A stretch of 63,758 bases of DNA, the filler included, from Kipferlia bialata (taxonomy: Eukaryota), in assembly GCA_003568945.1 (NCBI GenBank). It is 5 parts of 5 records of this genome, joined end to end, with 100 filler letters (N's around TTAATTAATTAA, not from the genome) between each part and the next. Parts side by side here need not be neighbours in the genome. Positions count along the whole stretch, not along the records: positions 1 to 14,531 come from BDIP01000806.1; 4 more parts are not named here. One strand, 5' to 3'. Below are positions 9,849-14,178 of this stretch, one piece after another. Both the position numbers and the translations under genes were made by a program. The notes below the pieces were generated by a model. It did no database searches and was not told the DNA's origin. It saw only the letters and a program-made list of their open reading frames with translations. Each line of letters starts with the position of its first letter. The first letter of the stretch is position 1.

Positions 9849-12800
9849 AATAACCAACATGCTCCAGACATTCCAGAAGATTGCCCTTGCGAAGTACAGC
9901 GGCAAGAGGTATTTGAATATAGTGACCATTTTTCAAAGTGAAGAATAGCTCTCCTATGTTGCTCTGACCGCAGCAAGCGTCTTTCCGACCTTGATCGAGA
10001 TGTTGCGGCTGCCACGGCTGAGTTCCGCAGGTAATACTAAACTACAGGAGTTCAGAGTACTATTGATACTTGCACACTGGTGTATACAATTTGTGTAATC
10101 CTTCGATACTTGAAGATATTTGTCCTTTCCTATAACTTTTGACAAATATCTAGGAACTCTAGTGATTGTAGCGCAAGTACACTGCCTCTTTCTCACTTGA
10201 AGTACATATGACGACCACTTAGCCCACCAGATCCACCAGATGAAAGAGTACAGACATCAGTTGAAGTGGGAGACAGGTATCTCCACGACGTTTATGTGAC
10301 ACACACACATATACGGATCGACTCTCTCAAGCATGTTGTGGTTGCCTCATACTATATGGCTCACATATATATACGAGTATTGGGGTCAGTATGGAGTTGC
10401 ACTGTTCAGTATCAGATATTCTGGTAGGTATCATTCCCGTGTACTATTCCTCGGCCTACCTGTATATCGGCCTCTATCTCGTATCTAACTGAAAGACGGG
10501 CTCAATGCCGCCTGTGTGCGACTGAGAGACATCCTGTCAACCCCAGAGGCACGGGAGAAGTACCTAAGGTGAACATCCATCAGCCAAAAAGACGTATATA
10601 TATACCATTATCATTAATATATATACACCACTACCCATGTACATGGTATTGGATATACTAATATATAAGTATATATATATATATATAAATATAATGGTCG
10701 ATGCTGTCCACTTGACGCCTTTGATCTCCAGTGAAGACGACCTTGTGGTAATTCTCGGGACTGCAAAGGGACTGTACCAGGAGAGGAGGTATGTCTGTGG
10801 AGTCAATCACATTCCCATACCCATGCGCAACCTTCCGAGAGTATCAGAAGATAATTTTGTTTTTCATTCTCAAATATTGCTTCTATGAATTTTCTTTCCT
10901 TCATACTACTAACCTCAGGGGAGAGTTGGTTCACTTTGGTGAGAGACTCACGAAGGATAGAGCTGAGTTCAGACGGTACGTAAATCATGTAGTATGCCCA
11001 TATTTCTCAATACGCTATCAATAGAGAGTGTTTCGAGAGGCCACTTCCCTTTGAGGAAACAAGGTCTTTGGCATTTCACTACAGCACTCGTGACTCCCAC
11101 TTGGCCCACCAGATCCATCAGATGAAGGACTTCAACGCACAGCTGGAGGCGGATACAGGTATTCCTAATCAAACTCTGTGTGGATATCCCCGCAGACCAT
11201 TTAGTATATGTCTTGTATCAGAACTTCTCTGTCCAGAGATCCATATAGTGTCACATTTTCCATGTACATTCCATCACGATAGAGCCCTTTACCTCTGTAA
11301 AGACTCACGTCAGCAAGTTTGAAGGCTCTCTGTGAACGCGCCAGTGAGTTACTGCCCCTGTCCCAGAGGTGGGATATTGTGTCTCTAATTTGAATTATTT
11401 ACAGTGCTGCGAGACTCTTACTCCAGGATAGATACCCTTGAGGCATCCCATTCGGAATCACTCACCCAGCTCGCGACAAAGAGGTGGCTGATTTCGTGTT
11501 TTGATTCATTTTGATAGCCTGATAGGATCAGGTGTCTTTGAGTTCGTGACACATTCATATTAGATGTATACTATAATATATTTGATTTCAGGATGGAGCT
11601 GGAGGAGCAACGTCAGATTCTCGTCACCAGAGTGGGGCTAAGGTTTGTACCATTCTGATAGTATGATGACATTGTATGACGTGTTTCTCACGACTTCAGA
11701 GTTGTAACAGTATTGTCTCTTCTGTCTAACGGCAGTGGTTTTTCCATCCCTGTTCCGTCTTCTGAGAGTGATGCAGCTCTCAGTGGAACCATGTCATTAG
11801 CTGACCTTTCTGGTGCTGGTGTGACTGAGACCAGTGCTGAAGAGAGCACTATAGCCTCAACGAACACAGAGGGTATGGTCAGATCGCCATCTGCTTCGAG
11901 TGCATCCAAGCCTGTTACTGGCAGTACGTCTCCAACATGCCATAACACTGGGGTTACCGATCATCTCCAGGATACGGAGGACTTCCAGCTGGAAACAAGA
12001 GATCTGAGTACAGATGGAGTGTGTGGCACCACGTCCGTGGAGCCTGGCTCGGATCGGAGGCCAGTGTACGTGTCCCACGTGTCTCTACCGACCCGAGCCA
12101 GTTTTGCATTCTTTGTGCTCCGTGTTGAGACTTACTGCCTCATCATCGACACTGGTGTCAAACTTGCAGCATCCAGCCAAGTGTCTGGTGAAGCCGTGGT
12201 TTCTCTTCTTCAGAGTGACGACAGACTGGCAAAGGGTGCAGTTGTTGTCGATCTCATCACCACCCACGACCACCACGACCACATTGGGTACAGAGAGGTG
12301 CTGGCCGCGCACTTCAGGTCCCAGGGCCAGGTCGCCTTCACAGACATATCGAGGAACGAAGCTCGTCGTGATATTGACCCCAAGAGCTTAGTTCCCACTT
12401 CCCTCTCAACGGTAGAGACCACTAGCTACAGGCTGGTATATGAAGAGGGAACAACAGCAAAGGATGGCAGCTCCGACCGATGCACCATCTATCAGAAGGT
12501 GTTCTCCTCTCCAACGGATGTGCAGGTTAACCTGTTTGTACCACCATATCCTATGGAGGACGAGCACAACCGCCACACCATTGTGGTACAGGCTATCGTA
12601 GGTGGTGTCACAGCTCTATTCACTGGAGACATGGAGTGGCCTGCGATGTCGTGGCTTGGAGAAGGAACGATTGACTCGGCAGTCCCCCAGCTCCACACCG
12701 CTGTTGAGATGATGTCGGTGCCACACCACGGGTCACCAGCCAACGTCTTCCCTGACATGTATGCGACTCTCAATCCTCGTACTCTTATGGTTCCATCTGG

Positions 12801-14178
12801 AGTCCACAAGGGCGTTGAGTTCTTCAAGGACTGGCCTGGTGTTCTACTTGACATCATGGCTCAGAAGGTTGCCTCCAGGGACTTTGATGGCCTCCACATC
12901 ATGTTCTTCAACCAAGTTGGAGACATCAACAAGGTCTTGGGTACGACAGGCTGGAAGGTGGATGCTGACGGATGTCTCTCGACCACTCTCTCGGTAGTGG
13001 AGACGATTGATTACCTTGTTAGGCAGTTCAATCACGTGGGACAGAGAGAGACGGAGACTGAGACTCTCGGCAAGGACCTATCCAGTTCGGTGGAGGAAGA
13101 GAGAGTGAAGACCAAGTGCAAGTCGTTCATCGACTCTCTCTTTTCCAATGGAGCTGGGGTGGCTGGCCTTAATGGCCTACGTGCTAAGGGCAGAGCTGCT
13201 CTCGTTAGCAACGACTTTGGGTCTCAGCTGGTGGCTTTGGCCGATGAGATTCACAGCCTCTTGAAGCCCCAGGGGGGACGAGCAGCAGTCCACTCACCTA
13301 AGACACACAGTCGAGTACTGGATACTGGGTCTGCTGATATTCCCATTGGGGATCTGAGCGACCTCAAAAAGAAGGGCGACGAGGCTACTTGCACCAGAAT
13401 TGGGATACTTAGCGCCATTGCCCATCATGCCAACTACAACTGTGATCTTGGGAAGATGTTCTACGTGCTGTGTTGCCTTAGCGATATCCGGGAAAAGAAG
13501 ACTCCCTTTGAGCTCAAGCAGGACTTCTACTGCAGTGTGGAGAAGCCCCTAGTGGCCTTTTGCTGCAACATTCAGGAGTATGGTGTGGCTCCAACCCAGA
13601 TATGGGTCAAGCCTTGCTCCAACAACTCTATGGTCCTCTTAGAGGATGGGAAAAAGAAGAAGACAGTGACATGTGGAGTATGGGTCCCCCAAGACAGGGC
13701 CAGCATGCAGCTTCACGAAGAAGAGTGTCTCCATAGGGCCATTCCATGCACGTTCGCTGGGCGTGGGTGTGAGTCTCTCCTTCAGCAGAGTACTCTTGCT
13801 GCTCACGTAAGTGGGTGTGGATACCGCGAGACGCAATGTCCAGGGTGCTTGTCCTCCATGAACCATCACGAGCTGGTTAGTCACATGTCCGACTGTCAGG
13901 ATATTGTGGAGTGTCGCCACTCACCTGCATGTGACTGGAAGGGGCCAAAGAACTCGCTGGAGGCCCATCTCGAGGAGAAGTGCTATCACATTGGGTGTCA
14001 GTACTACTCGAGGGGCTGCTCTGTGGTCCTACCAGGTACTGACAGAGATGCCATGGACACGCACGAAGCCAAGTGCCCCCACAGACCACGGTCCTGCCGT
14101 TACTGCGGAGACGAGATTGACAAGAATGATATGTCAGGCCACGAGCTGTGTTGCGGTGAGGAGGCCAAAGACCTGTAA
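9849..14178 (+). CDS. Multi-exon protein: duplicated helical N-terminus + ComEC/Rec2-like MBL-fold hydrolase + TRAF-type zinc fingers
   Basis: About ten short exons (9849-11643) splice in frame to a 2.48-kb exon (11700-14178). That exon carries IIDTG, THDHHDHIG (HxHxDH), LFTGD, VPHHGS and LNPRTLMVPSG, then repeated H...C..R...C....C TRAF-like fingers (HEEECLHRAIPC, HVSGCGYRETQC, HEAKCPHRPRSC). The true start and stop are uncertain. Confidence 0.75.

What the first reader, a model, noticed from the sequence alone, without database searches (positions are those of the whole stretch)
11700..14178. Bacterial-type ComEC/Rec2-like MBL hydrolase fused to TRAF zinc fingers
Seen: a complete MBL metal-binding set (DTG, HDHHDH, TGD, PHHGS, then P...++.SG) followed after a helical insert by several TRAF-like zinc fingers in one 2.48-kb intron-free exon. 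Established: the HHGS signature marks the ComEC/Rec2-like MBL subfamily, which is mainly prokaryotic and distinct from the eukaryotic CPSF73/SNM1/RNase Z MBLs; MBL nucleases also occur in anti-phage systems such as Avs1. TRAF fingers are eukaryotic ubiquitin/signalling modules. Inference: a laterally acquired nuclease/phosphodiesterase wired to a eukaryotic signalling scaffold, possibly an innate-defence or prey-DNA-processing effector. I do not recognise this architecture from any named family.
Basis: partly seen in the sequence, partly recalled or inferred. Interest (0 to 1): 0.75.

Follow-up and report, generated by a model that had tools for sequence, protein, structure and literature searches.

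The report
Bacterial-type phosphodiesterase fused to zinc fingers
A spliced gene of the free-living anaerobic protist Kipferlia joins a metal-binding enzyme domain most like bacterial DNA-uptake nucleases to six eukaryotic zinc fingers; it belongs to a small protist family that likely came from bacteria long ago, and it is predicted to cut phosphodiester bonds, though its substrate is untested.

Summary
The open frame 11680-14178 is the main exon (11736-14185) of a real gene: an RNA-type contig joins it, in frame, to ten short upstream exons, giving exactly the 1015-aa Kipferlia bialata protein KIPB_003967. Layout: helical N-terminus, low-complexity linker, MBL domain with a full two-metal ligand set, helical region, six TRAF-type fingers; no RING, MATH or transmembrane segment found. 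The MBL fold matches ComEC and pneumococcal Pce best (Z 18.7; other MBLs 14.3 or less). New here: its closest relatives are eukaryotic (a second Kipferlia gene, three Barthelona genes, one formin-linked metagenomic protein), forming one group in trees (98/96), none with fingers. So the transfer likely predates Kipferlia; no donor was found. Best reading: a cytosolic phosphodiesterase, probably a nuclease, aimed by its fingers. The defence idea has no specific support: ordinary ComECs score far higher on defence profiles, and no large disordered gating loops are predicted. Several ComEC DNA-contact features are lost, so another substrate is possible. Verdict: a new architecture of a known enzyme clade, a singleton, function untested.

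The parts
9844..11642 (+). Ten short exons (9844-9908, 9974-10030, 10203-10276, 10496-10568, 10732-10788, 10919-10975, 11085-11158, 11314-11368, 11427-11483, 11592-11642) encoding about 200 aa of predicted helical, possibly coiled-coil N-terminus; annotated ATG at 9859, but the frame is open upstream and the transcript has 142 more 5' letters
   Evidence: GT..AG joints in one RNA-type contig and absent from the DNA-type run; spliced by coordinates they reproduce P0003 exactly; heptad signal only weak (87-212 of 2000 shuffles reach it)
10203..11158 (+). Internal duplication: exon 10203-10276 and exon 11085-11158 are copies (both 74 nt, both preceded by a 57-nt exon)
   Evidence: 53 of 74 bases identical without gaps; shared peptide HLAHQIHQMK
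11736..14185 (+). Main exon, 2450 nt, carrying linker, MBL, helical region, zinc fingers and the stop codon (14176-14178)
   Evidence: one DNA contig spans 10701-14421 at depth like the flank (492 against 451)
11736..12060 (+). Ser/Thr-rich low-complexity linker, aa about 203-310
   Evidence: read from the sequence; no Pfam match at E 10
12061..13005 (+). ComEC/Pce-type metallo-beta-lactamase domain, aa 311 to about 625, with D340, H379/H381/D383/H384, N480, D500, H532/H533
   Evidence: model confident over about aa 305-594; best structural matches 9IC4 and 2BIB, Z 18.7, rmsd 3.1-3.3, 222-223 residues
13006..13614 (+). Region of no known family, aa 626-828; first half predicted helical at low confidence
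   Evidence: no Pfam match, no usable Atlas hit, no match to the non-MBL parts of the relatives, pLDDT mostly under 60
13615..14154 (+). Six TRAF/SIAH-type zinc fingers: five regular (aa 873-896, 903-922, 928-951, 956-982, 989-1008) and one with a long first loop (C829, C848, H862, C866)
   Evidence: pattern scan finds the five regular ones; the sixth is read by eye from the Cys/His list; zf-TRAF 6 stretches
14186..14500 (+). Intron behind the stop codon (14186-14478) and start of a 3' untranslated exon (from 14479)
   Evidence: joint 14183-14477 in the RNA-type contig, shorter side only 24 letters

Best explanation
This is a spliced Kipferlia bialata gene for a likely cytosolic protein whose ComEC/Pce-type domain is predicted to hydrolyse phosphodiester bonds with two metal ions, most likely in nucleic acid, and whose zinc fingers and helical arms likely hold it on a partner or substrate. 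Shown: gene structure, splicing, domain order, the ligand residues, the fold class, and a small family of eukaryotic relatives with different flanking regions. From known relatives: H379, H381, N480 and D383, H384, H533 with bridging D500 would bind two metal ions that activate a hydroxide, as described for ComEC and Pce. Inferred: the domain came from a bacterium once, before the Fornicata and Barthelona lineages split (or passed between anaerobic protists), lost its export signal and membrane channel, was duplicated, and was joined to different partner domains. ComEC's MBL domain binds DNA poorly by itself and needs a helper domain on the same chain; here the fingers would fill that targeting role by binding a protein partner rather than DNA. 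The substrate is not shown.
For: Splicing and integration. Ligands nearly invariant across 31 aligned sequences (D36, H75, D79, H80, N176, D196, H228, H229 of alignment A5). Profile of the six eukaryotic domains finds ComEC structures first (E 5e-8) and RNase J only at 0.012. Fold: ComEC 9IC4 and Pce at Z 18.5-18.7, next 14.3, CPSF-type 13.6, RNase Z 12.8, SNM1 10.0 or less; Foldseek gives the same top three. Of 21 hits among 1.84 billion representatives, 4 of the 5 best non-self hits are eukaryotic (ranks 2, 3, 4, 6), and a fifth eukaryotic protein is lower. The 7 eukaryotic domains are one side of a branch: 99/98 among 31 rows, 98/96 among 41 rows. Barthelona belongs to the sister group of Fornicata (PMC11316075, passages). 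Each relative has other flanks; one has a formin FH2 domain. No hydrophobic 19-mer above 1.45 in P0003. ComEC MBL has phosphodiesterase and nuclease activity (PMC8579336, passages) and needs a fused binding domain (PMC12455585, passages).
Against: No activity data. ComEC features tied to DNA are lost: the Lys before HHGS is in 0 of 7 eukaryotic domains against 36 of 46 prokaryotic ones that show an HHG (Lys690 listed among conserved basic residues in PMC5031224); the [GNR][HF]P loop is in 1 of 7 against 30 of 42 scored; motif II is HxHxDH as in Pce, not HxDxDH as in ComEC. No donor was found (best prokaryotic hits 18-31% identical in alignments), branches are long, the trees have no outgroup, the second bootstrap had not settled, and the prokaryotic rows were chosen by likeness to the query. 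The model was folded from an alignment of ComEC-like sequences, so it leans to that fold. The family was seen in only two named genera plus one metagenome protein; no other metamonad came up. The fusion is a singleton, so no conservation shows that the fingers matter. The true N-terminus is unknown, so a signal peptide is not excluded. All RNA evidence is one contig of one run of the same sample as the possible source.
Confidence: 0.45

Rival explanations
1. The domain is a Pce-like phosphodiesterase for something other than nucleic acid (phosphocholine or glycerophosphodiester groups, nucleotide messengers, or phosphodiester-linked protein modifications), brought to its target by the fingers.
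For: Pce ties with ComEC in structure (Z 18.7 each); motif II has the Pce form; the Lys before HHGS and the [GNR][HF]P loop are lost in nearly all eukaryotic members; a cytoskeletal FH2 partner in one relative does not suggest DNA.
Against: By sequence the eukaryotic profile is nearer ComEC (E 5e-8) than Pce (E 0.19-0.73); 10 of 46 prokaryotic homologues also lack the Lys; net charge does not separate the groups.
Confidence: 0.2
2. It is a latent defence or cell-death DNase, a eukaryotic counterpart of the protease-activated MBL nucleases HamM, Avs1a and CanC, with the fingers or helical region as sensor or brake.
For: Those nucleases are ComEC-like MBLs (PMC12799240 and 10.1101/2025.11.14.688446, passages); the family diversifies fast and swaps partner domains, as conflict genes do; the motif II-IV distance is 121 here and up to 168 in relatives, against about 100 (median, my count) in the prokaryotic set; weak hits to LmuA, PDC-M48B and RTasMBL profiles.
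Against: Ordinary ComECs score far higher on the same profiles (P0016 on LmuA 1e-24 against 1.4e-4); the query has no Avs1a hit; the extra segment is modelled as ordered strands (block pLDDT 69-86), whereas gating loops are described as disordered; a protease-paired MBL (L014) has a distance of 168; the eukaryotic group does not join the 3 defence-linked rows (long branches).
Confidence: 0.15
3. The fusion is young and largely incidental: an intron-free MBL-plus-finger cassette landed behind a resident short-exon helical gene and is expressed, but the combination has little selected function.
For: Singleton architecture; one 2450-nt exon behind ten 51-74-nt exons in an intron-rich genome (124,912 introns, PMC5874029, passages); codon use of the big exon departs from neighbours (GC3 0.59, r 0.65 over 813 codons, against GC3 0.68-0.73 and r 0.79-0.94).
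Against: The frame is open over more than 1000 codons across ten joints; all metal ligands and finger ligands are intact although the nearest paralogue is only 29% identical; other genes in the window have 1.0-1.6 kb stop-free frames too; the small exons also show weaker bias (r 0.64), so low bias may be gene-wide.
Confidence: 0.12
4. It digests DNA of engulfed prey in the food vacuole.
For: Kipferlia feeds on bacteria (PMC5874029); ComEC-like MBLs degrade incoming DNA; Entamoeba has ComEC-annotated short proteins induced by iron shortage (PMC4161402, passages).
Against: No signal peptide or membrane segment in P0003 or at the N-termini of P0004, P0006 and P0017 by hydropathy; Cys/His zinc fingers and FH2 are cytosolic modules (general knowledge).
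Confidence: 0.06
5. It is bacterial contamination or an assembly or gene-model chimera.
For: The MBL part is of bacterial type; the window has assembly gaps nearby.
Against: One DNA contig covers 10701-14421 at flank-like depth, and one RNA-type contig joins all parts through 11 GT..AG introns in frame; nearest relatives are eukaryotic.
Confidence: 0.02

Closest known systems
ComEC/Rec2 C-terminal MBL nuclease (PDB 9IC4; TIGR00361)
   Same: Fold (Z 18.7), motif III Asn, TGD, HHGS; best profile matches.
   Different: No Competence channel or OB fold, no membrane segment; HxHxDH instead of HxDxDH; DVGQG-type start motif absent (0 of 7 eukaryotic against 31 of 42 prokaryotic scored), replaced by xLPT..F; Lys before HHGS and RYGHP-type loop lost; fused to fingers.
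Phosphorylcholine esterase Pce/CbpE (PDB 2BIB, 1WRA)
   Same: Fold (Z 18.5-18.7), HxHxDH form of motif II, modular layout of catalytic domain plus repeat targeting arm.
   Different: Pce is secreted and uses choline-binding repeats; sequence match is weak (E 0.19 or worse).
Protease-gated antiphage MBL nucleases (HamM, Avs1a, CanC, LmuA-linked)
   Same: Same ComEC-like clade, cytosolic, no channel.
   Different: No partner protease known, no large disordered gating loops predicted, below all profile cut-offs, not grouped in the tree.
TRAF and SIAH/Sina ubiquitin ligases and adaptors
   Same: Array of C-x-C-x11-14-H-x-C fingers above the Pfam cut-offs.
   Different: No RING, no MATH/TRAF-C or SIAH substrate-binding domain detected; fingers end the protein and follow an enzyme.
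Entamoeba histolytica 'amebic ComEC' proteins EHI_169340 and EHI_156240
   Same: Precedent for short ComEC-annotated proteins without the channel in an anaerobic protist; no activity described (PMC4161402, passages).
   Different: Not among the 20 non-self hits as far as names were given; relation to this family untested; no fingers reported in the passages read.

Membership tests
ComEC/Rec2 competence protein | Multi-pass Competence domain (PF03772) and OB fold (PF13567) on the chain | tested here: not met
   No such Pfam match; highest 19-residue hydropathy 1.45 against 2.47 in a true ComEC
ComEC/Rec2 competence protein | TIGR00361 score above the curated cut-off | tested here: not met
   31.8 bits against 190.05; control P0016 416.8
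ComEC/Rec2 competence protein | Motif II HxDxDH (Asp for His; PMC8579336) | tested here: not met
   THDHHDH = HxHxDH
ComEC/Pce-like MBL clade (domain level) | MBL fold closest to ComEC/Pce | tested here: met
   Z 18.5-18.7 against 14.3 or less; Foldseek ranks 1-4; model built from ComEC-like alignment, so not fully independent; sequence profile agrees
ComEC/Pce-like MBL clade (domain level) | Motif III Asn, motif IV [TL]GD, motif V HHG[ST], complete two-metal ligand set | tested here: met
   N480, D500, H532-H533-G-S align with nearly invariant columns
ComEC/Pce-like MBL clade (domain level) | Metal-dependent phosphodiesterase activity | not testable with these tools
   needs an assay
Eukaryotic beta-CASP (CPSF73, SNM1/Artemis) and RNase Z MBLs | beta-CASP domain or RNase Z profile; closer fold match than ComEC | tested here: not met
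   No such Pfam match; Z 13.6 (6V4X_H), 12.8 (ELAC1), 10.0 or less (SNM1 family) against 18.7
Gated antiphage MBL nucleases (HamM/Avs1a/CanC) | Two disordered insertions over the active site | tested here: inconclusive
   About 20 extra residues between motifs II and IV (121 against about 100; L014 168), modelled as ordered strands; coordinates of the model were not available to test occlusion
Gated antiphage MBL nucleases (HamM/Avs1a/CanC) | Profile match or grouping with these proteins | tested here: not met
   No Avs1a hit for the query; other defence profiles weaker than for plain ComEC; not grouped with 3 defence-linked rows (few rows, long branches)
Gated antiphage MBL nucleases (HamM/Avs1a/CanC) | Cognate activating protease | not testable with these tools
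   No genome held; gene neighbourhood is not informative in a eukaryote
TRAF adaptors / E3 ligases | TRAF-type zinc fingers | tested here: met
   zf-TRAF 35.1 bits, cut-off 27, 6 stretches
TRAF adaptors / E3 ligases | N-terminal RING and C-terminal MATH domain | tested here: not met
   No Pfam match at E up to 5; protein ends 7 residues after the last finger; upstream Cys/His spacing is not RING-like by eye

The most novel reading that the evidence does not exclude
Anaerobic metamonad protists keep an ancient, bacteria-derived family of ComEC-like nucleases that they have wired to different cytosolic sensor or scaffold modules (TRAF fingers, a formin, helical arms) as cell-autonomous defence or death effectors, a eukaryotic parallel of the latent MBL DNases of bacterial immunity.
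Probability: 0.15. Interest if true: 0.8.

Novelty: new variant of a known kind. Interest (0 to 1): 0.45.

Why it matters
ComEC-like MBL domains are known from bacterial DNA uptake, cell-wall editing and antiphage killing, with almost no characterised eukaryotic cases. This finding shows such a domain fully naturalised in a eukaryotic gene, shared by two deep-branching free-living metamonad lineages and joined to varied eukaryotic modules. It gives a concrete, assayable example of how a transferred enzyme is rewired by domain shuffling, and, if the defence reading were true, a first handle on immunity in fornicate protists. As it stands the finger fusion is one gene in one species with no functional data, which limits its weight.

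Tried and rejected
No whole genome is held, so paralogues of the fingers and N-terminus in Kipferlia were not surveyed. Word-index protein searches were insensitive: MBL region, near lengths, 1 of 3737 candidates (self); aa 575-1015, 1 of 7993 (self); six-row profile against longer proteins, 2 of 5913 (self and one ComEC; it missed known relatives P0004, P0005 and P0017, so it is weak evidence). Single-sequence fold failed (pLDDT 33.6) and was not searched. ESM Atlas: whole protein only 0.79 hits to bacterial MBL/ComEC clusters, a lead only; middle region no usable hit. Contig scans with a two-row alignment gave only distant prokaryotic MBLs at 22-27% identity: 2 of 274, 5 of 462 and 4 of 70 stretches. 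Plasmid and phage tblastn: 3 and 5 weak records. Family profile over 401 genomes of one phylum: 55 with E 1e-8 or better, best 53.6 bits and partial, no special sister family. Viral fold library: two unnamed matches at E under 0.001, not followed. Net charge does not separate nucleases from others. Hit P0020 is a repeat artefact (no MBL) and P0012 is a fragment; both were left out of the trees; 14 near-duplicate or redundant loci were left out of the second tree. Runs X3 and X4 laid nothing, which is no evidence; no holder is on record as RNA. Contig depth in X2 is 24 for this gene and 430-620 for neighbours, but contig depth cannot rank expression. The 5' loose end of the transcript was not found in the window and is probably in the repeat or gap at 9490-9747. 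Bacterial promoter and terminator patterns are at chance level. Four look-ups of earlier scan findings returned nothing. No complex prediction was run: there is no candidate partner.
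Full report
Observation. The window has a stop-free frame of 832 codons at 11680-14178 on the + strand, its longest. Pfam finds Lactamase_B, Sina_ZnF and zf-TRAF and NCBIfam a weak, partial ComEC/Rec2 match. A protein search returned one record identical over the query, named by its source as Kipferlia bialata KIPB_003967, 1015 aa. The window is eukaryotic in character: RRN3 exons, kinase exons downstream, many short introns.

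Gene structure. Of four public runs, one DNA-type and one RNA-type run of the same sample hold the stretch (RNA status is a guess by the tool). In the RNA-type run one 3240-nt contig skips 11 GT..AG introns between 9844 and 14500; the DNA-type run shows none of these joints and covers 10701-14421 in one contig at flank-like depth. Neighbouring genes are also spliced in that run only, which supports its being RNA. Splicing the window at these joints gives a frame that contains P0003 letter for letter, with five more residues open upstream, and the contig has 142 further 5' letters not found in the window. So the gene is transcribed, integrated and probably longer than annotated. The main exon is 11736-14185. 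This is one contig from one run of possibly the source sample, so it is not independent replication.

Anatomy. Residues 1-202 come from ten exons of 51-74 nt, include a duplicated exon (53 of 74 bases identical) and look helical, with only a weak heptad signal. Residues 203-310 are a Ser/Thr-rich linker. Residues 311 to about 625 are the MBL domain. Residues 626-828 match nothing. Residues 829-1008 hold five regular and one stretched TRAF-type finger. No RING, MATH, signal peptide or membrane segment was detected in the known sequence.

Which MBL. A profile of six eukaryotic domains ranks ComEC structures first. A model folded from a 31-row alignment is confident over the MBL part (100 residues at pLDDT 90 or more, 139 at 70-90 of 566) and matches ComEC 9IC4 and Pce 2BIB/1WRA at Z 18.5-18.7 among 48,161 chains, with the next at 14.3 and the eukaryotic CPSF, RNase Z and SNM1 enzymes at 13.6 or less (Foldseek agrees). 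The alignment was ComEC-like, so the model leans that way. The ligand set is complete and of the Pce form (HxHxDH, Asn in motif III), whereas ComEC has HxDxDH (PMC8579336, passages).

Relatives. An unindexed search of 1.84 billion representatives with the MBL domain gave 21 hits at E 0.001 or better. After self, the best are Kipferlia KIPB_005595 (1e-22), an unnamed metagenome protein with a formin FH2 domain and two MBL copies (2e-17; eukaryotic by its FH2 domain, host unknown, fusion unverified), and Barthelona PCE1_000515 (9e-14) and PCE1_002304 (1e-6, metal motif degenerate); Barthelona PCE1_002513 follows at 6e-4. Of the other 15, 14 are ComEC-like MBLs that are named or look prokaryotic and one is a repeat artefact. 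The eukaryotic domains share private features (xLPT..F in place of DVGQGD; LF[VI]PP) and form one side of a branch in two maximum-likelihood trees (99/98 of 31 rows; 98/96 of 41 rows, bootstrap not fully settled, long branches, no outgroup). None of the five relatives has fingers, and their flanks do not match each other. Barthelona lies in the sister group of Fornicata (PMC11316075, passages). The simplest reading is one old acquisition followed by duplication and domain shuffling; transfer between protists or long-branch attraction are not excluded, and no donor was found.

Mechanism. By analogy with ComEC and Pce the domain would use two metal ions and a bridging hydroxide to cut a phosphodiester. 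ComEC's domain has no measurable DNA affinity alone and works better with a binding domain on the same chain (PMC12455585, passages); I infer that the fingers and helical arms do the aiming here, through protein contacts, since TRAF-type fingers are protein-interaction modules (general knowledge). Nucleic acid is the most likely substrate because most characterised members of the clade are nucleases, but the Lys before HHGS (0 of 7 against 36 of 46) and the [GNR][HF]P loop (1 of 7 against 30 of 42 scored of 48 rows) are lost, which keeps a Pce-like substrate open.

Defence reading. ComEC-like MBLs serve as protease-activated DNases in Hachiman, AVAST and caspase-nuclease systems (PMC12799240, passages and section 4; 10.1101/2025.11.14.688446, passages). 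The query hits three PADLOC MBL profiles at E 1e-4 to 3e-3, but all 10 prokaryotic controls, plain ComECs included, hit them far harder, so this is general likeness. Its motif II-IV distance (121) lies between typical ComEC-like domains (about 100) and a protease-paired MBL (168), and the extra piece is modelled as ordered. It does not join three defence-linked rows in the tree. The fast divergence and partner swapping of the family leave the idea alive at about 15%.

History of the fusion. One 2450-nt exon behind ten tiny ones, with codon use unlike its neighbours, suggests that an intron-free cassette of MBL plus fingers was attached to a resident gene; but long exons occur elsewhere in the window and the small exons also show weak bias, so this is a suggestion only.

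Literature. Searches for ComEC with eukaryote/TRAF terms listed no paper on this family or architecture among the 12-15 shown each, and ComEC+eukaryotes+homologs+metamonad found 0 papers; the library lacks most subscription journals. A precedent for channel-less 'ComEC' proteins in a protist exists in Entamoeba (PMC4161402, passages). I also saw passages of PMC5874029, PMC5031224, PMC4929436 and PMC7785958. I read no supplements; lists of laterally transferred genes in the Kipferlia and BaSk genome papers could mention these genes.

Verdict. Real, expressed, undescribed in the searches run; a new architecture of a known enzyme clade and a member of a small metamonad subfamily. Not a ComEC, not a TRAF, not shown to be a defence effector. 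Interest 0.45.

Noticed in passing
protein P0005 (metagenome): A formin FH2 domain followed by two tandem copies of the same eukaryotic ComEC-like MBL in one 1127-aa frame; repeated peptides between FH2 and MBL could be read-through of an intron, so the fusion is unverified.
   Followed up: partly
protein P0008, Barthelona PCE1_002304: Family member with a degenerate metal site (TYTDDSY for motif II, GGG for TGD, NHGS for HHGS): a probable pseudo-enzyme or decaying copy.
   Followed up: no
window 9974-10276 and 10919-11158: Duplicated exon pair (57 + 74 nt) inside the N-terminal region of the gene; the 74-nt exons share 53 bases.
   Followed up: yes
window 8966-9345, - strand: A spliced minus-strand gene (CT..AC joints in run X2) lies head to head with the MBL gene; one contig joins it with the + strand gene ending near 8785.
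   Followed up: no
window 14580-15700, - strand: Protein kinase exons ([29 protein letters not shown]; Polo-like by recall) converge on the 3' end of the gene; some exon pieces look partly duplicated among the AG repeats.
   Followed up: no
window 2610-4603, + strand: RRN3 (RNA polymerase I initiation factor) exons, Pfam E 4e-10 and 9e-22.
   Followed up: no
window 35378-42330, - strand: Large gene with stop-free frames of 0.8-1.6 kb and a weak HEAT-repeat match; used as the codon-usage control.
   Followed up: partly
L014:904-3245 (genome G227): An Avs1a-like MBL directly followed by a trypsin-like-protease fusion gene (protease recognised by its motifs, from recall): a gated nuclease-protease pair; used as a comparison.
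   Followed up: partly
L012:1-10223 (Rhizobium plasmid NZ_CP048285.1): A 527-aa MBL gene sits between a CBASS cyclase/patatin cluster and a DUF1837 plus helicase pair (Hachiman by recall).
   Followed up: no
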